Shown in pieces: positions 4,928 to 45,947 of a stretch of 64,000 bases of DNA. How positions within the stretch are numbered: position 1 is the first letter of the stretch; each line of letters opens with the position of its first letter. The notes under the pieces are model-generated. The model saw only the letters and a program-made list of their open reading frames with translations, searched no databases and was not told where the DNA came from. A program made the position numbers and the translations under genes. Origin of the DNA: a phage; NCBI GenBank assembly GCA_020241125.1, contig GCA_020241125.1_4708.1. One strand, 5' to 3'.

Positions 4928-5555
4928 TGATACCTTCTATTAGTTGTACAGCAACTTCTTTTTCGGTGCTATAAAAGAACTTGCGATGGAACTGAACAAG
5001 AAGTTTTTCGAATTTACATTGAACGATCTTTTTGCGTTCGATATGACCCAGGGAGAGCAAAGCACCCATGCAACGTACCGCTTGTTCGAGAACTTGTTTC
5101 GCGGTATCGTGATCGTCCGGTAACGGTAAATCTTCCTCATCGTCTTTAGCGATAAGGCGTCTGATGATGTTATCGATACGTATCTCATCACCGTTAATAA
5201 AAGCCCCCTTCTCCCAGTCATCGAATCGTTGATGGATTCGACGTTGTAAGTTGGCCCTGTCTTCCATTAACTCTTTCAACTGGCTTTCTAAATGGGATAC
5301 GGTACGGCGGTCGGTTTCAGTGAAGTTTTCCGATTCTTTGTACCACCAATCATTACGCGATAGTAAATCGTTAACGCGCGAAATCGTCCGACGACACTCA
5401 CTAACAAGCCCGTCACCATTCGGTAGCTCTGTACCAAAATAGCATTTGTATTTATAACGCATAACACGGATTAAACGTTTCGCTAGAAAACCTTGCCTTT
5501 CCAGTTTCTTCTTCAGTTGTGTGTATTTCTCTTCTTTTGTTTCCATTAATTCCAT
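4914..5555 (-). CDS. hypothetical protein (213 aa)
   Basis: ORF track. Confidence 0.55.
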   Translation of the reverse strand: MELMETKEEKYTQLKKKLERQGFLAKRLIRVMRYKYKCYFGTELPNGDGLVSECRRTISRVNDLLSRNDWWYKESENFTETDRRTVSHLESQLKELMEDRANLQRRIHQRFDDWEKGAFINGDEIRIDNIIRRLIAKDDEEDLPLPDDHDTAKQVLEQAVRCMGALLSLGHIERKKIVQCKFEKLLVQFHRKFFYSTEKEVAVQLIEGINEVK

Positions 5556-5944
5556 GATGTTGTACCTCGTTCAGCAATCAGGAGAGTCGTGGTTGTGCTT
5601 TTCACTAATCTATTAAAGTCTTGATATATCCGCCTGAGGGATGATTTCAAATCACAATAACGGCTGAAATAAACCTTCAAGTCATCTTTTGTCACAGTCT
5701 CCGTATTTATTTTCGTAGAAACACCGAGATCGATAAACTCTTTTCTTAATTGGGATAATTCATCAAGAAGTCGATGATGGCTTAGATAAATAACAGATTT
5801 ATCGGATAACAACTCGCCGGTTATCCGGCTCTGGCGTTCATCGAAATATTGGAGCCGCCATTCAATTCGCTTACGTAATTTATCAAGTAAATCAACAAAA
5901 GCGGTATAGCTGTTAACGGCTAGGTTAACTTGACTCGTTATCAT
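5546..5944 (-). CDS. hypothetical protein (132 aa)
   Basis: ORF track. Confidence 0.5.
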   Translation of the reverse strand: MITSQVNLAVNSYTAFVDLLDKLRKRIEWRLQYFDERQSRITGELLSDKSVIYLSHHRLLDELSQLRKEFIDLGVSTKINTETVTKDDLKVYFSRYCDLKSSLRRIYQDFNRLVKSTTTTLLIAERGTTSWN

Positions 5945-7216: not shown

Positions 7217-8236
7217 TTACACCGCCACCTTAGCCTTGATAGCGGGGTGTGATTGATATCCGACGAACACAAAGTCTTCGTAACGGTAATCCGTAATACT
7301 TTCTGGTTTACGTACGATTGTTAGCTTCGGTAATGGATACGGCTCACGACTAAGTTGTTCTTTAACCTGTTCGAAATGGTTGTGATAGATATGACAATCT
7401 CCACCTGTCCACACGAACTCACCAACGTCCATATTCAGCTGTTGGGCAAGCATATGTGTTAACAACGAGTATGATGCGACGTTAAAGCTCCAACCCAAGA
7501 GCGTGTCGCACGAACGTTGATAAAGCTGACAGGATAAAGCACGTGTTGGTACGTTATGCGCATTCAACCAGAGTTCTGTTTCACTGTGTCGTACATCATC
7601 CGTAACCCACTGGGTTCTTAGTACGTCATTGCGCTGGACATAATCAACGCGTTCATCGATCGTGAGTTCGTGGGTATAGAACTGATAGAATGAATGGCAC
7701 GGAGCGAGATGCATATCGTCTAAATCACCTACGTTCCACGCGCTAACGATGATTCGTCGAGAATCAGGATCTTCTTTGAGTTGACGCATCATGTTTGCGA
7801 TTTGGTCGTGGTGTTTAACATACAAGAGATGTTTGACCATACCGGCGTCAACAACACCGCAATACTCATAGCCGCGTTGCATCAACTCACGAGTACGTTC
7901 TGTATCATGCGGAACAACCACTTTGTAGTCAATCCATTCTCGCCATTGTCTGCCGTAAATCGGTCCTAGATTCCCTTCCTTATCAGCCCATTCATTCCAA
8001 ATACGAACACCGTTATCTTGAAGATAAGCAACGTTTGTGTCGCCGTTAAGAAACCAGAGCAGTTCGTGGATAACGCTCTTAAGGTGAATCTTCTTGGTGG
8101 TTACCAGCGGAAATCCTTTCTTCAAGTCAAAACGCATCTGACGCCCGAATACCGAACGGGTCCCGGTGCCCGTGCGGTCGGCCTTATCGCGACCGTTATC
8201 CATGATGTCTTGCAAAAGGTCCAAATACTGTTTCAT
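7217..8236 (-). CDS. thyA: thymidylate synthase, ThyA family (339 aa, two insertions relative to E. coli ThyA)
   Basis: [31 protein letters not shown]...[12 protein letters not shown]...[30 protein letters not shown]...[11 protein letters not shown]...SFNVASY...[16 protein letters not shown]; catalytic Cys in the PCH motif and the dUMP-specifying Asn are present. Confidence 0.9.
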
Positions 8237-8509: not shown

Positions 8510-9394
8510 TCAATAACGACCGTAGCGTTCCTCGAGCCGTTTTGGTTTTCTCAGAAGGCTATCTTTAAGTGGTACGACGTCGATATCAACACTCTCTGAG
8601 TAATAGCCGTTAGAACTACCATACCAACGGATAACAACACAACCCTTTGCAGTACGGATATGGTAAAATGTCCATTGTATACGTTCGCTGTAATAACCGT
8701 AGTTATCGGTTCTTTCCTCGGTTCTTTCTTCAGCACTGAGTATCTTTTCACCGATGATATCATTAATATCGCCGTCAATGTCTTCAAGATACACCTCTTC
8801 GCAGCAATCCTGCTGATGACAGAATTCGACAACGTTTCCATCACCACGATAGAAAAGAAGGGCGATACCGTTTCGTAATTGCTCGCTCGTTACATCAGAC
8901 ACACAATGCAAACTTTTATCGTCGGTAATCACCAAGACGTTGTTGATTACATGTCCGGCAAGCGCTCCGATCTTATTTACCGTGATAATCGGACGAACCG
9001 GTTCAGATTGAACGATAGGAATACGGACACAACCAATTAAAGCCATCCGTCCTTTCTTTGGTCTAACCGCAAGATACGGTGATTTTCTTGGGTGGTTATG
9101 TAGTCGTATTTCTACTTCGTTGAATTTAATCCCGTATGAACACAGAAAATAATTGAATAGTTTACGGAATTCCTCGGTTGCTTCTTGCAACGTGATGTTA
9201 TTTACTGTGAGTTTATGTCCCCTGAACACCCGGGTTAGATCGATAACATCCAGCGTTTTGAAATATATTTCCGTAAGGGGATGACCTGTGTATTCCAGGC
9301 AAGTAATTGTTCTTTGAACCACGATTTTAGGTTGTGCACCTTTAAAACGTTTCAGGTATTTAACACGATAGCGTGTATGATCTGATGTTAACAT
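8510..9394 (-). CDS. hypothetical protein (~294 aa; start moved to internal ATG with GGAGAGGAG RBS)
   Basis: ORF track 8510..9493; the longer N-terminus would overlap a terminator hairpin. Confidence 0.5.
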   Translation of the reverse strand: MLTSDHTRYRVKYLKRFKGAQPKIVVQRTITCLEYTGHPLTEIYFKTLDVIDLTRVFRGHKLTVNNITLQEATEEFRKLFNYFLCSYGIKFNEVEIRLHNHPRKSPYLAVRPKKGRMALIGCVRIPIVQSEPVRPIITVNKIGALAGHVINNVLVITDDKSLHCVSDVTSEQLRNGIALLFYRGDGNVVEFCHQQDCCEEVYLEDIDGDINDIIGEKILSAEERTEERTDNYGYYSERIQWTFYHIRTAKGCVVIRWYGSSNGYYSESVDIDVVPLKDSLLRKPKRLEERYGRY

Positions 9395-9467
9395 TTTAAT
9401 CTCCTCTCCCGACTTCAGAGAATTCTTAAAATCCGTTAGTTTTGATAGATAGGGTAAGACGGCATAA

Positions 9468-9490
9468 AAGCATCCCATTACGGGATGCTT
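9468..9490 (-). terminator. hairpin (AAGCATCCC/GGGATGCTT) with UUUUAUGCCG tail in minus sense
   Basis: Inverted repeat directly after stop of 9502..10050. Confidence 0.5.
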
Positions 9491-9501
9491 CATTAATCAG
9501 C

Positions 9502-21607: not shown

Positions 21608-23062
21608 ATGAAACTCAAACAAAGCTGGAAAGACGAACTTCTCGCGTTAGTAAACAGCAAAAACAGTTTACAACTGACATTAGACGATGTAAAATTTGAA
21701 CTAACGGCACCGGTAAGCGAAGTGCCTGGAACGGTCGTTGTTACAATCAAACCGAACGATAATAGTCGCTACTTTAACGAGCAGTCTCTGACCTACATCC
21801 GTCGAGACATCGCTAAAAACTTCACCGGGATCCCGTTACGGGTTATCGTTAAGCAAGATACCGCTGTAAGGGATATCATCAATACGATTGCTGAACGTTA
21901 CGGATTGGTATTTGACACAGCCGTCGACTTCCTCGAATCCGAGCTGAATAAACAAATTACGTTCGCAGACACCGGTATTAAAGACATTACGGTTCCGGTT
22001 GCAAACACGTCTTATGTTTGGGCGGGTAATCTTCAGTTCAATATTGCTAACGATACGTTAAGCTTGATTACTATCATCAAGAAAACCGATCTTACGAATC
22101 TGGTTTATCTGGATGGTGTTGAAGCTGACACATCTGGTTCGTTACTATTAGCAACCGCAGCACTTGTTAACGAACACGTAAATGAACCGATGGTTGAAAA
22201 CGAAGATATCGTTAATGAATTTATTAACGTTCTTAATACTCTAGCCAAATATGGTGACATAACCGGCGATGAATTAGATGCCGCCTTACAAGCGTACGAT
22301 GAAGCAGAAAACAGGAATAAAACCACGGTAATAACTCTTGGTGATATCCAGTGTGTTGCAACAGAAAAAGACGATTGGGAAATTGGACGTTTACGCGGTC
22401 AGATGGTTCTCGCGCTCAAATCCGATAAATACCCGGAGCCCGATAACACGTTCAGGTTGTTTACGAATGGTGGTGACGTATCGCTAACGTTAAACACAAT
22501 GAAAGATATAAGTATCGATTGGGGTGATGGGAATAAAGTAACGTTGGATGCTGAAGAAAGATACGCGCACCACACATACGCCGACAATAACCAGTACCAA
22601 ATCGAAATTGTGTCTCGTACGGACCCAGATGTGCTGCGACCAAATTATATTTCTGGGAGTGAGATAACCGAAGTAATTCACTGGGCTACTACTTCAACAA
22701 TAGCTCTGAATTTTGTTGGATGCGATAATTTAGCGACTGTTCCAGATGAGATCCCAACTTCGTGGACAACGTTGGACAGCATGTTTGAAAGTTGTACGAA
22801 TTTGAATGATCCGTCTATCTCTAACTGGAATACAAGTAACATCACATCAATGAATGGTATGTTCGGCGGATGCACTAAATTTAACCAACCTTTAGCTGCC
22901 TGGGATGTCAGCTCAGTAACTGACATTGGTGGTATGTTTAACGGATGCAACAGTTTTAACCAAGATTTAAGTGGGTGGCGATTACCGTCAGGAGTAACCC
23001 ACGACAATTACGATAGTGGTGCTTTCTCGTGGCAGACGGAACATAAACCGACGTTCCAGTAA
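21608..23062 (+). CDS. protein with C-terminal DUF285/BspA-type leucine-rich repeats (484 aa)
   Basis: C-terminal repeats NFVGCDNLATVPDEIPTSWTTLDSMFESCTNLNDPSISNWNTSNITSMNGMFGGCTKFNQPLAAWDVSSVTDIGGMFNGCNSFNQDLSGW match the FxxCxxF-NQDIS-xWDVSxVTxMxxMF pattern. Confidence 0.7.
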   Translation: MKLKQSWKDELLALVNSKNSLQLTLDDVKFELTAPVSEVPGTVVVTIKPNDNSRYFNEQSLTYIRRDIAKNFTGIPLRVIVKQDTAVRDIINTIAERYGLVFDTAVDFLESELNKQITFADTGIKDITVPVANTSYVWAGNLQFNIANDTLSLITIIKKTDLTNLVYLDGVEADTSGSLLLATAALVNEHVNEPMVENEDIVNEFINVLNTLAKYGDITGDELDAALQAYDEAENRNKTTVITLGDIQCVATEKDDWEIGRLRGQMVLALKSDKYPEPDNTFRLFTNGGDVSLTLNTMKDISIDWGDGNKVTLDAEERYAHHTYADNNQYQIEIVSRTDPDVLRPNYISGSEITEVIHWATTSTIALNFVGCDNLATVPDEIPTSWTTLDSMFESCTNLNDPSISNWNTSNITSMNGMFGGCTKFNQPLAAWDVSSVTDIGGMFNGCNSFNQDLSGWRLPSGVTHDNYDSGAFSWQTEHKPTFQ

Positions 23063-44346: not shown

Positions 44347-44696
44347 CACATATCTTCAGTATGAATCGCTACTTCATACCCGCAGCATTACCTGCAGCTC
44401 CTGGTGTTACCAGGACGGAGAGATCATCTCATCACCCACGAAGGGTGTTCCGCGCTACCCTCAGCGAATTCGAGGGACATGATCGTTGAACCTTCCACCG
44501 ATAATCGGTGGCTAGGCTGCTGATTAAACATTGTACGTTGGGGTGGCATCCTGGTTCAGGACTGTCGTTGAAGCCTCCCAACATCCACTCACTTATTTCC
44601 GCCTTATCGGCTCCCATAAGGGCAGAGTGGCTTTAGCCCGTCTCAGCAATTCACGGAATTCAAGCTCTTCCTTTCAGAAGGCAGGGCCTCATCTGA
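44347..44696 (-). other. putative self-splicing intron (group I-like, 350 nt, no ORF) interrupting the beta' gene
   Basis: Exon 1 frame ends ...KGYNA and exon 2 starts DFDGD, restoring the YNADFDGD motif; 5' exon ends in U and insert ends in G; insert carries GGUUCAACGAUCAUGUC and AAGAUAU near its 3' end (resembling group I R and S elements) and several stem-loops (CCUGGUAACACCAGG). Confidence 0.55.
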
Positions 44697-45947
44697 AGCA
44701 TTGTATCCCTTAAGGATCATCACGCTTAACCCGATGGTATTATCCTGCGGATCGCGTTTAACCTTGGTGATTTCAAGACATTGGTTACTGCTTCGGTCAA
44801 GTGATGGGTTTCGAACAAAACCGCACACAATCCCATCGAACGGTGTATCAGCAATAAGCTCATCGTGCAGCTCACTCATCATCGGATGATAATTACGGAC
44901 ATGTTCCGCAACGAACGCACGTGCTGCTCTCGGTGAATAACCACGATGGAATAACTTGGATTGGATATGTTCTTTATTGGTTAAAGTAAATGGTGCGTAT
45001 GGGAAATGCAGATGATAATAACGATGGTTCGCTGTTATCGAACTGATTACAGTACGCGTGGTGAATGGATGTAATGTACCTAATATGTTTTTACGTGTGA
45101 TACCTTTCTTCTTACCGATGAACTCATCGAAAATCGCCGCATGGTATTGCAGTAGCTTCAATTGCACTTTCGCCATCCAGTTTTCTTTCTTTCTGGCGCT
45201 CAAAGGTGTTGTTGGGTGATAGATACTATTCAACGTACCGATAGCATCGATCGCACCTTCCATTTTGCTATCCGCATAACGACCGGTTGGCGTATTCTCG
45301 ATAACGAACATCATGGCCGCAGGAAAGCTGATATACTGACTGAAGAACTTATCACGATGGATACGGATGAATTCTCGTAGCGTATCAACTTTCTCCGTGT
45401 TCTTCGGTCCGCGTAACGTCGGTCCTTTATACAAGATCTCCATGATGCGATCGAAGTTCTGTATAAAACTATTTACACCGCGACGTATCCCGAATACATC
45501 GAATTGCTGCTCCAGATAGTTCTTGAGTTCGATGGGTCGTTTTACATTTGGACGGTAACTGGCATCAATGAGCCACGTCATCGTTTCAAAGCTTTTGATA
45601 TTCAACTCGCTTGCCAGCACGAGATGGACCAACGGGTTAATGAACGCATCAATTCCTTCAGGAACACGCGCCCAAACCGTCGAACGAATCTCTTGTTCTG
45701 CTGGATAGGTTACAACCGTTTTACAGTTCGGACACACCGTGCCGAGCAGCTCACCACGATTGTAGAAACCACAACCACATTGTGGCGTGATATCCAACGT
45801 ATCGCTGGAGTAAACACGGGTGATAAAACTGTTTAATTTCTTCTTCTCTTCGACGACTTTTGTATCGTAATCATTCAACAAAATCGGCGTGAAAGGAAGT
45901 TCTGCGAGCTGTCTATCGAAACTCACGATATCGAGCATGATGGCCAT
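44697..45947 (-). CDS. RNA polymerase beta'-like N-terminal subunit, exon 1 (417 aa to the GYNA junction)
   Basis: N-terminal zinc finger CGCGFYNRGELLGTVCPNCKTVV (cf beta' CxC...CxxC); TAGGAG RBS; unspliced frame continues 17 codons to a stop. Confidence 0.65.

What the first reader, a model, noticed from the sequence alone, without database searches (positions are those of the whole stretch)
7217..8236. ThyA-family enzyme with two large insertions
The protein aligns end to end with E. coli ThyA, with catalytic Cys and the dUMP-specifying Asn conserved. It carries about 33 extra residues after GRQWREW and about 40 extra after FYQFY (339 aa versus 264). Phage ThyA paralogs with altered loops include hydroxymethylases that start base hypermodification, so the substrate or product may differ from canonical thymidylate synthesis.
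Basis: partly seen in the sequence, partly recalled or inferred. Interest (0 to 1): 0.4.

Follow-up and report, generated by a model that had tools for sequence, protein, structure and literature searches.

The report
Jumbo-phage thymidylate synthase with two inserts
This is the ordinary thymine-making enzyme (thymidylate synthase) of a Goslar-like giant E. coli phage; its two extra folded segments are shared by many giant phages, leave the catalytic residues unchanged, and give no sign of a new chemistry or modified DNA base.

Summary
ORF 7217-8236 (- strand, 339 aa) aligns end to end with E. coli ThyA, with +34 residues after QWREW and +41 after FYQFY.

The suggestion of altered substrate or product is not supported:
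- 27 of 28 dUMP/folate-contact residues are identical; the 28th is I264V. This includes Cys146, His147, Asn177, Trp80 and the C-terminal closure residues.
- The protein passes two NCBIfam thymidylate-synthase equivalog cut-offs.
- The modelled core superposes on E. coli TS (TM 0.96).

The window is about 96% identical to phage Goslar. Goslar annotates this gene as thymidylate synthase, also encodes thymidylate kinase, has no annotated thymidine-hypermodification genes, and its DNA was processed with restriction enzymes.

The inserts are real folded modules (pLDDT above 90): a beta-alpha-beta-beta unit and a three-helix cap on a dimer-interface hairpin. They are under strong purifying selection (omega 0.016). 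They are shared by SPN3US-like, Goslar-like and 201phi2-1-type jumbo phages and by many metagenomic ThyAs. No solved TS structure covers them and I found no paper on them. Their role is unknown; dimer stabilisation or partner docking is the most likely.

Verdict: a canonical enzyme with a lineage-typical decoration. Modest interest.

The parts
7217..8236 (-). thyA coding sequence, 339 aa, thymidylate synthase (ThyA/PF00303)
   Evidence: ORF list; Pfam E=1.5e-114; NCBIfam NF002499 421.8 bits (cut-off 405) and NF002497 416 bits (cut-off 327); 92.2% nt and 95.6% aa identity to Goslar gp141 'thymidylate synthase'.
7817..7933 (-). Insert 1, aa 102-140 ([39 protein letters not shown]). It replaces E. 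coli loop 102-106, net +34. Predicted fold is beta-alpha-beta-beta.
   Evidence: Block alignment; translation. AF2 model, pLDDT 95-98: strand 101-107, helix 112-120, strands 124-130 and 135-143. D103, K105, Y123, G127, Y139 and H143 are nearly invariant in the clade. 2 synonymous and 0 non-synonymous changes versus Goslar.
7541..7672 (-). Insert 2, aa 189-232 ([44 protein letters not shown]). It replaces the E. coli hairpin turn 155-157, net +41. Predicted fold is a three-helix cap on the extended beta-hairpin.
   Evidence: Block alignment; translation. AF2 helices 193-202, 204-213 and 217-226, pLDDT 93-99. Family-wide motif ELSxxER ... LDxxxVPxR. 12 synonymous and 1 non-synonymous change versus Goslar. 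Net charge -4.
7697..7699 (-). Codon of catalytic Cys180 (= E. coli Cys146)
   Evidence: Alignments; translation.
7481..7483 (-). Codon of Asn252 (= E. coli Asn177, the pyrimidine-specificity determinant)
   Evidence: Alignments; translation; role of N177 from PMC8670742.
7462..7532 (-). Divergent patch 2 versus Goslar (gene nt 705-775; aa 237-253, [18 protein letters not shown] versus Goslar CMLLARSQDTVLGTPFNI), in the dimer-interface/active-site strand
   Evidence: Pairwise DNA alignment. Segment identities: window-Goslar 0.51, against 0.94-0.97 in the flanks.
7690..7711 (-). Divergent patch 1 versus Goslar (gene nt 526-547; aa 176-179, HLAP versus ALPA), next to the catalytic Cys

Best explanation
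The gene encodes a canonical, folate-dependent thymidylate synthase: dUMP + 5,10-methylene-THF gives dTMP + DHF. It belongs to a Goslar-like, nucleus-forming jumbo phage of E. coli. It supplies dTMP to the phage's own thymidylate kinase and so to unmodified thymine-containing DNA.

The two extra segments are independently folded modules grafted onto two indel-tolerant sites of the TS fold. Insert 1 is a beta-alpha-beta-beta unit at the loop after the Y94 helix, the site of 'eukaryotic insert 2'. Insert 2 is a three-helix cap on the tip of the long beta-hairpin whose base carries Cys146 and Arg166 and whose returning strand (LSCQLYQR) lies in the dimer interface.

Shown: family membership, an intact catalytic and cofactor apparatus, the fold and selective constraint of the inserts, and their wide distribution in jumbo phages.

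Inferred: that the inserts leave the chemistry unchanged and act as structural or protein-protein elements, most plausibly reinforcing or specialising the obligate dimer, or docking a phage partner.
For: Family and chemistry:
- Pfam full length; two NCBIfam thymidylate-synthase equivalog cut-offs exceeded; 68% core identity to E. coli ThyA.
- 27 of 28 dUMP/folate/closure residues identical, plus I264V.
- AF2 model with mean pLDDT 97 and pTM 0.93. Its core matches E. coli TS ternary and product complexes at TMt 0.96.
- PHROG 160 'thymidylate synthase', E=1.9e-117.

Inserts are real and constrained:
- pLDDT above 90 throughout.
- dN/dS 0.016 over 83 insert codons versus Goslar, against 0.137 in the core.
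- Insert 1 is conserved across clades at 58-65% overall identity.
- Insert 2 has conserved boundary motifs across 50%-identity representatives.

Lineage trait:
- SPN3US, SEGD1, phiEaH2, Asesino, Machina, Proteus phage 7 and Goslar all carry 339-353 aa forms.
- The best structural match is the 201phi2-1 TS, TMq 0.93.
- Site-C inserts of at least 20 aa occur in 76 of 102 well-aligned representatives. Sites B and C occur independently of each other.

Context:
- Goslar encodes thymidylate kinase (gp008) and no annotated hypermodification enzyme.
- Goslar DNA was hydrolysed with restriction enzymes.
- TS-GFP is excluded from the phage nucleus during PhiPA3 infection, which fits a cytoplasmic metabolic enzyme (PMC9067925).
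- LSCQLYQR is a TS monomer-monomer interface peptide (PMC8041318).
Against: - No enzymatic or nucleoside-composition data exist for this phage or for Goslar.
- No DHFR gene is detectable in Goslar or the window (best tblastn E=0.26). The usual phage TS-DHFR pairing is therefore absent and DHF recycling must rely on the host.
- A dTMP kinase would also be needed in a 5-hmdU pathway, so its presence is not discriminating.
They are inferred from strand geometry (about 10 residues x 3.3 A from Cys180/Arg241 to the cap) and from established TS structure.
- The window carries unusual residues next to Asn177 (GWSFN instead of GLPFN). This position also varies among relatives: KP, TP, GS, AP.
- The role assigned to the inserts is conjecture. 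No conserved neighbouring gene suggests a partner.
Confidence: 0.88

Rival explanations
1. One reading: the insertions mark a ThyA paralogue with altered chemistry, such as a dUMP or dCMP hydroxymethylase, that initiates DNA base hypermodification.
For: Phage TS homologues do include hydroxymethylases (PMC8989533; PMC7824862). No DHFR is found in Goslar, and a hydroxymethylase would not produce DHF. Substitutions L174W and P175S lie next to Asn177. No biochemical data exist.
Against: N177 and H147 are retained, so a dCMP substrate is excluded by the known determinants. W80, E58, Y94 and the C-terminal VAV are retained. Equivalog-level HMM scores. 68% core identity to a bona fide TS. dCMP hydroxymethylase gp42 matches the model only at TMq 0.54. 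No 5-HMUDK, aGPT-Pplase, dTTPase or dCMP deaminase is annotated in Goslar. Goslar DNA was treated with restriction enzymes in a terminal-mapping experiment. The same inserts occur in dozens of phages routinely annotated as TS.
Confidence: 0.04
2. The inserts are functionless passengers: neutral loop expansions, or relics of mobile elements (degenerate mini-inteins, in-frame intron or MITE remnants) tolerated at permissive sites.
For: Both sites are indel hot spots with very variable insert lengths across the family, 0-130 aa at site B and 0-79 aa at site C. The middle of insert 2 is poorly conserved between clades. Goslar-type genomes do harbour group I introns and HNH endonucleases.
Against: 14 synonymous against 1 non-synonymous change in the inserts between the window and Goslar, omega 0.016, stricter than the core. 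Confident, compact predicted folds. Insert 1 is conserved across phages that are only about 60% identical overall. No flanking or dispersed DNA repeats. No Rfam intron match anywhere in the window. The segments are too short (39 and 44 aa) and lack intein splice-junction residues (read directly from the sequence).
Confidence: 0.06
3. The inserts are a targeting or regulatory device specific to nucleus-forming phages, for example an import signal for the phage nucleus, or a tether to the chimallin shell or PhuZ for channelling dTMP.
For: The insert-bearing form is enriched in Chimalliviridae-type jumbo phages: Goslar, SPN3US-like phages and 201phi2-1. Insert 2 is an acidic, solvent-exposed helical module.
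Against: TS-GFP is reported as excluded from the phage nucleus in PhiPA3 infection (PMC9067925). Site-C inserts also occur in many metagenomic ThyAs of unknown and probably non-chimallivirus origin, in varied combinations. No conserved partner gene lies next to thyA.
Confidence: 0.1

Closest known systems
Escherichia phage vB_EcoM_Goslar gp141 (YP_009820826.1), annotated thymidylate synthase
   Same: Same gene at the syntenic position. 92.2% nt and 95.6% aa identity, same length (339 aa), and the inserts differ at only one residue.
   Different: Fifteen amino-acid differences. Eleven fall in two short patches around Cys180 and in the LSCQLYQR interface strand, and look like recombination tracts. 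The window has an extra 895-bp segment with a DUF7448 ORF just upstream.
E. coli ThyA (PDB 2TSC, 1TYS, 4GEV and others)
   Same: 68% identity over all 264 core positions, 27 of 28 ligand-contact residues identical (the 28th is I264V), and a core TM-score of 0.96. The same reaction is expected.
   Different: E. coli ThyA lacks the 34- and 41-residue modules. No solved TS chain matches them.
Thymidylate synthases of SPN3US-like (Seoulvirus) and Erwinia jumbo phages, and of Pseudomonas phage 201phi2-1
   Same: Both inserts at the same sites. Insert 1 is clearly homologous (RGYxYxG motif). 58-65% overall identity for the SPN3US group. The 201phi2-1 TS superposes on the whole model, TMq 0.93.
   Different: The middle of insert 2 differs in sequence and length (41-53 aa). 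The 201phi2-1 TS is 457 aa, with further additions.
Lactobacillus casei TS 'small-domain' insertion, and the two eukaryotic TS inserts (established knowledge, from memory; human numbering 117-128 and 146-153)
   Same: A precedent that TS tolerates lineage-specific surface insertions without any change of chemistry. Insert 1 here is at the site of eukaryotic insert 2, after QWRxF/W.
   Different: The L. casei and eukaryotic insert-1 site (E. coli 81-89) is empty here. The hairpin-tip insert (E. coli 155-157) has no counterpart in any characterised TS I know of or could find.
T4 gp42 dCMP hydroxymethylase and phage dUMP hydroxymethylases (e.g. SPO1 gp29)
   Same: Same superfamily and the same Cys-Michael-addition mechanism (PMC8989533).
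   Different: gp42 has Asp in place of Asn177 and a different residue at position 147 (PMC8670742). Its structural similarity to the model is much lower, TMq 0.54. The window protein keeps the TS-specific residues.

Membership tests
ThyA thymidylate synthase (PF00303; EC 2.1.1.45) | Full-length match to the family profile above curated thresholds | tested here: met
   Pfam 382 bits against a cut-off of 24.3. NCBIfam equivalogs NF002499, 421.8 bits (cut-off 405), NF002497, 416 bits (cut-off 327), and TIGR03284, 358.5 bits (cut-off 108).
ThyA thymidylate synthase (PF00303; EC 2.1.1.45) | Catalytic nucleophile Cys146 with His147, and phosphate-binding Arg21, Arg166, Arg126' and Arg127' | tested here: met
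   C180, H181, R21, R241, R160 and R161.
ThyA thymidylate synthase (PF00303; EC 2.1.1.45) | dUMP specificity: Asn177 (not Asp), plus Ser167, Asp169, His207 and Tyr209 | tested here: met
   N252, S242, D244, H282 and Y284. The discriminating role of positions 177 and 147 comes from PMC8670742.
ThyA thymidylate synthase (PF00303; EC 2.1.1.45) | Folate-site and hydride-transfer apparatus: Glu58, Ile79, Trp80, Trp83, Tyr94, Leu143, Leu172, Gly173, Phe176 and the C-terminal V-A-I/V | tested here: met
   All identical except I264V. The list of residues is from established TS enzymology (Carreras and Santi 1995, from memory).
ThyA thymidylate synthase (PF00303; EC 2.1.1.45) | TS fold | tested here: met
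   AF2 pLDDT 97. Foldseek to E. coli TS: TMt 0.96, E=3.6e-44.
ThyA thymidylate synthase (PF00303; EC 2.1.1.45) | Catalysis of dUMP + CH2-THF to dTMP + DHF; obligate homodimer | not testable with these tools
   Needs an enzyme assay. No multimer prediction was available.
dCMP hydroxymethylase (T4 gp42 type) | Asp at the position of E. coli Asn177 | tested here: not met
   Asn252 is present.
dUMP hydroxymethylase / thymidine hypermodification pathway | Co-occurrence with 5-HMUDK, aGPT-Pplase, dTTPase/dTMPase or dCMP deaminase genes (PMC8989533) | tested here: not met
   None is annotated in the whole Goslar genome, which is about 96% identical to the window across the aligned 61 kb. None is among the thyA neighbours scanned with Pfam and PHROGs. 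Caveat: most Goslar genes are 'hypothetical' and were not all re-scanned.
dUMP hydroxymethylase / thymidine hypermodification pathway | Modified thymidine in virion DNA | not testable with these tools
   Only indirect evidence: Goslar DNA was hydrolysed by several restriction enzymes (PMC6563267).
Intein or intron insertion in thyA | Intein splice motifs and size of at least 130 aa, or a group I intron RNA fold | tested here: not met
   The inserts are 39 and 44 aa, in frame, and under protein-level purifying selection. No Rfam family reaches its gathering score in the window.

The most novel reading that the evidence does not exclude
The three-helix cap on the dimer-interface hairpin, with or without the beta-alpha-beta-beta module, could be a jumbo-phage-specific interaction device. 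It might make the phage TS dimer orthogonal to the 68%-identical host ThyA by preventing mixed dimers. Or it might dock TS to a phage partner, such as thymidylate kinase or a nucleus-associated factor, to channel dTMP towards the phage nucleus. The sharply bounded allele swap in the adjoining interface strand between the window and Goslar would then reflect co-evolution of that interface.
Probability: 0.2. Interest if true: 0.5.

Novelty: new member of a known kind. Interest (0 to 1): 0.22.

Why it matters
If the verdict holds, this gene needs no special follow-up as a DNA-modification lead. It is the normal dTMP-synthesis gene of a Goslar-type chimallivirus, and the phage probably has canonical thymine.

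What remains of interest is structural. Thymidylate synthase is one of the most conserved enzymes known. A large group of jumbo-phage and metagenomic ThyAs nonetheless carries a confidently folded, selectively constrained helical cap on a dimer-interface hairpin, at a site where no characterised TS has an insertion. No structure or paper was found for it. Knowing what it does (dimer stability, partner docking, host-enzyme orthogonality) would say something about how giant phages organise nucleotide supply in the cytoplasm for a genome replicating inside a protein nucleus.

Tried and rejected
- **Inserts as mobile DNA.** There are no direct or inverted repeats at the insert boundaries. No other copy occurs in the window by blastn or tblastn. 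GC content matches the core.
- **Inserts as introns or inteins.** No Rfam hit in the window. They are in frame, short, and under protein-level selection.
- **Inserts as known domains.** No Pfam hit even at E up to 10. No meaningful PDB sequence hit.
- **Host gene conversion as the source of the E. coli-like active-site patch.** The window patch is 65% identical to E. coli thyA at the nucleotide level, the same as the rest of the gene. Goslar's patch is 43%. So the host is not the donor, and Goslar's allele looks like the imported one.
- **Mosaic origin of core versus inserts.** Cores of insert-bearing ThyAs are all 55-77% identical to E. coli ThyA, so the high similarity is simply TS conservation.
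- **A conserved neighbouring partner gene.** None is shared between the Goslar-type and SPN3US loci.
- **DHFR as supporting context.** Not found in Goslar or the window, so this is uninformative.
- **First AF2 run with 11 sequences.** It gave a poor core (pLDDT 70) and was replaced by a 79-sequence alignment.
- **First regex-anchor measurement of insert lengths.** It mis-anchored and was replaced by hmmalign to an E. coli ThyA HMM.
- **afdb50 fold search.** Unavailable.
- **Cluster-member look-up of 10 representatives.** It gave no organism names.
- **Model coordinates.** They could not be read in the sandbox, so no distances were computed.

Full report
**1. The observation**

The window contains an ATG-to-stop ORF at 7217-8236 on the minus strand, encoding 339 aa. 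It has an AGAGGA ribosome-binding site, and its start codon overlaps the stop of a 70-aa upstream ORF (ATGA).

It matches Pfam Thymidylat_synt over its full length (E=1.5e-114). It aligns with E. coli ThyA structures in three blocks: query 1-101 = Ec 1-101, 141-188 = Ec 107-154, and 233-339 = Ec 158-264.

The two gaps are insertions of net +34 residues (aa 102-140, window 7817-7933) and +41 residues (aa 189-232, window 7541-7672), confirmed by translation. They account exactly for 339 versus 264 residues. The catalytic Cys and the Asn that specifies dUMP are present.

**2. Where the window comes from**

The gene is 92.2% identical in DNA and 95.6% in protein to gp141 of Escherichia phage vB_EcoM_Goslar, which is annotated as thymidylate synthase. 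Five megablast blocks covering 61 kb of the 64-kb window align to Goslar at 93.5-97.8% identity and in the same order. Goslar is a 237-kb jumbo phage whose record annotates a nuclear shell protein and tubulin PhuZ, so it is a nucleus-forming phage. The window is therefore a Goslar-like phage.

**3. Is the chemistry altered?**

I tabulated 28 positions that contact dUMP or the folate, or that close the active site in E. coli TS. The list comes from established TS enzymology, from memory.
- 27 are identical: R21, K48, H51, S54, E58, I79, W80, W83, Y94, R126, R127, L143, C146, H147, Q165, R166, S167, D169, L172, G173, F176, N177, H207, Y209, V262 and A263, with D169 counted in both the dUMP and folate lists.
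- The last is I264V. From memory, Val is the C-terminal residue of the L. casei and human enzymes.

Positions 177 and 147 are the ones that separate dUMP-specific synthases from dCMP-modifying homologues (PMC8670742), and here they are Asn and His. The protein exceeds the curated cut-offs of two NCBIfam thymidylate-synthase 'equivalog' models, and of TIGR03284. Its best PHROG is 'thymidylate synthase'.

A model built from a 79-sequence alignment has mean pLDDT 97 and pTM 0.93. Its core superposes on E. coli TS ligand complexes with a target-normalised TM-score of 0.96. A dCMP hydroxymethylase (Acj9 gp42) reaches only TMq 0.54.

The genomic context points the same way:
- Goslar encodes thymidylate kinase (gp008).
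- It has no annotated 5-hmdU DNA kinase, aGPT-Pplase, dTTPase, dCMP deaminase or glycosyltransferase. These are the accessory genes that accompany dUMP hydroxymethylases (PMC8989533).
- Goslar DNA was hydrolysed with several restriction enzymes during end mapping (PMC6563267).

I conclude that the enzyme makes dTMP, with about 0.9 confidence. The hydroxymethylase idea is left at a few per cent. It cannot be fully excluded without an assay. The absence of a phage DHFR is the one contextual item that does not positively support TS chemistry, but it is equally explained by use of host FolA.

**4. What the insertions are**

They are not sequence noise.
- **Fold.** In the model both are confidently folded, with pLDDT above 90. 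Insert 1 forms a strand (101-107), a helix (112-120) and two strands (124-130, 135-143). Insert 2 forms three helices (193-202, 204-213, 217-226) that cap an extended beta-hairpin (strands 181-190 and 232-244).
- **Selection.** Between the window and Goslar the 83 insert codons carry 14 synonymous and 1 non-synonymous difference (dN/dS 0.016). The core gives 0.137.
- **Origin.** They are not repeats, are not found elsewhere in the window, and have the same GC content as the core. No Rfam intron is present. Neither segment matches any Pfam family or PDB chain by sequence. No solved TS covers them: the query-normalised TM-score is only 0.75 for the best PDB hits.

**5. Distribution**

The inserts are a lineage trait, not a peculiarity of this phage.
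- SPN3US, SEGD1, the SPFM phages, Proteus phage 7, and Erwinia phages phiEaH2, Asesino, Wellington, Caitlin and Machina encode 339-353-aa ThyAs. These are 58-65% identical to the ~225-kb-contig ThyA P0013, itself 65% identical to the window protein, and the aligned clade representatives carry both inserts.
- Hundreds of contigs of 220-227 kb in Salmonella, Shigella and E. coli assemblies do the same.
- The best structural match in the viral library is the 457-aa TS of Pseudomonas phage 201phi2-1. It superposes on the whole model including the inserts (TMq 0.93, rmsd 2.4 A).
- I searched 1.84 billion 50%-identity representatives and aligned the hits to an E. coli ThyA HMM. This shows three indel hot spots: E. 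coli 81-89 (the L. casei / eukaryotic-insert-1 site), 101-109 (insert 1 here; the eukaryotic-insert-2 site) and 151-158 (insert 2 here).
- Among 102 well-aligned representatives from the top 150, 76 carry at least 20 extra residues at the hairpin site. They do so with or without inserts at the other two sites. Some have site-B inserts without site-C inserts. The modules are therefore independent.
- The hairpin insert is homologous across these distant sequences. It opens with ELS/TxxER and closes with L/M-D-x3-5-V/I-P-x-R/Y, before the LSCQLYQRS strand. Its middle is hypervariable.

**6. Likely role of the inserts (inference)**

Cys180 immediately precedes the outgoing strand of the hairpin, and Arg241 is the tenth residue of the returning strand. 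At about 3.3 A per residue, the helical cap sits roughly 30 A from the catalytic centre.

The returning strand, LSCQLYQR, is the peptide used as a TS monomer-monomer interface binder (PMC8041318). So insert 2 decorates the edge of the dimer-interface sheet.

Insert 1 occupies the loop where eukaryotic TSs carry their second insert. From memory, that loop is not a ligand-binding element.

The most economical reading is that both are peripheral structural or protein-interaction modules, for dimer reinforcement or specialisation, or for docking of a phage partner. This is analogous to the surface insertions of T4 TS that were proposed to mediate contacts in the dNTP-synthesising complex (from memory, not checked here).

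I could not test this:
- No multimer prediction was available.
- No conserved neighbour gene suggests a partner.

A nuclear-import role is unlikely, because TS-GFP is excluded from the phage nucleus in PhiPA3 infection (PMC9067925).

**7. Comparison and novelty**

The protein meets every ThyA membership criterion that can be tested in silico. It fails the criteria for dCMP hydroxymethylase, for hypermodification-pathway context, and for an intein or intron.

TSs with lineage-specific surface insertions are already a known phenomenon (L. casei, eukaryotes, T4). This exact gene is deposited and annotated in Goslar. I therefore file it as a new member of a known kind.

The hairpin-cap insert has no counterpart in any solved or, as far as my searches went, published TS. 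That is a small structural curiosity shared by many jumbo phages. Interest is modest (0.22).

**8. Side observations**

- The window and Goslar thyA alleles are about 97% identical except for two sharply bounded patches: gene nt 526-547 and 705-775 (window 7690-7711 and 7462-7532). These hold 11 of the 15 amino-acid differences and lie at the catalytic Cys and in the interface strand. Nucleotide comparison with E. coli thyA shows that the host is not the donor.
- Relative to Goslar, the window has an extra 895-bp segment with a DUF7448 ORF just upstream of thyA, and an extra 132-aa ORF downstream. It lacks the HNH endonuclease and group I intron that interrupt an RNA-polymerase subunit gene in Goslar.
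- Genomes of a related jumbo-phage group, about 222 kb long, are deposited as 'plasmids' of E. coli and Enterobacter.

Noticed in passing
window 7462-7532 and 7690-7711 (within thyA): Against Goslar the gene is about 97% identical except for two sharply bounded divergent tracts, about 50% identical. They carry 11 of the 15 amino-acid differences and lie next to the catalytic Cys and in the LSCQLYQR dimer-interface/active-site strand. This looks like recombination between thyA alleles. E. coli thyA is not the donor: the window patch is 65% identical to E. coli and the Goslar patch 43%.
   Followed up: partly
window 8510-9493 (- strand ORF, 327 aa); indel 8510-9404: An 895-bp segment absent from Goslar sits immediately upstream of the thyA operon. 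It encodes a 327-aa protein whose C-terminal part matches DUF7448 (E=1.4e-23) and PHROG 2650, of unknown function.
   Followed up: partly
window 5545-5940 (ORF 5546-5944, - strand, 132 aa): A further segment of about 400 bp with a 132-aa ORF has no counterpart in Goslar and no significant family match.
   Followed up: no
window about 44689-44698 (ORF 44643-45947, RNA polymerase subunit): Goslar has 1,466 bp here, containing an HNH endonuclease (gp186) and an annotated group I intron that splits an RNA polymerase beta-type subunit gene. The window has only 8 bp and a continuous ORF, with no Rfam intron hit. It is therefore an intron-less, endonuclease-less allele.
   Followed up: partly
window 22155-23030 (3' part of ORF 21608-23062): This stretch is not alignable to Goslar by megablast, although both flanks are about 96% identical. 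It corresponds to the C-terminal part of Goslar gp161, a BspA-like leucine-rich-repeat protein, so it is a diverged or swapped domain.
   Followed up: no
NZ_CP173450.1 (E. coli strain 98232, 221,873 bp) and NZ_CP134650.1 (Enterobacter ludwigii, 222,441 bp); P0007-P0120 contigs: Replicons of about 222 kb deposited as 'plasmids', and hundreds of contigs of 220-227 kb in Salmonella, Shigella and E. coli isolate assemblies, carry the insert-bearing thyA at about 63% identity to the window protein. They are probably genomes of an SPN3US-related jumbo-phage group carried along with bacterial isolates.
   Followed up: no
proteins P0123, P0129, P0154, P0167 and others: Some ThyA representatives are 480-590 aa long, with about 250 extra residues between E. 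coli positions 35 and 123 or at the N-terminus, and most also carry the hairpin insert. They could hold inteins, homing-endonuclease domains or fused DHFR-like domains.
   Followed up: no
Goslar genome (L004-L008) and window: No dihydrofolate reductase is detectable with E. coli FolA as tblastn query (best E=0.26), and no ribonucleotide reductase is annotated. The phage keeps only TS and thymidylate kinase of the usual jumbo-phage nucleotide-metabolism set.
   Followed up: partly
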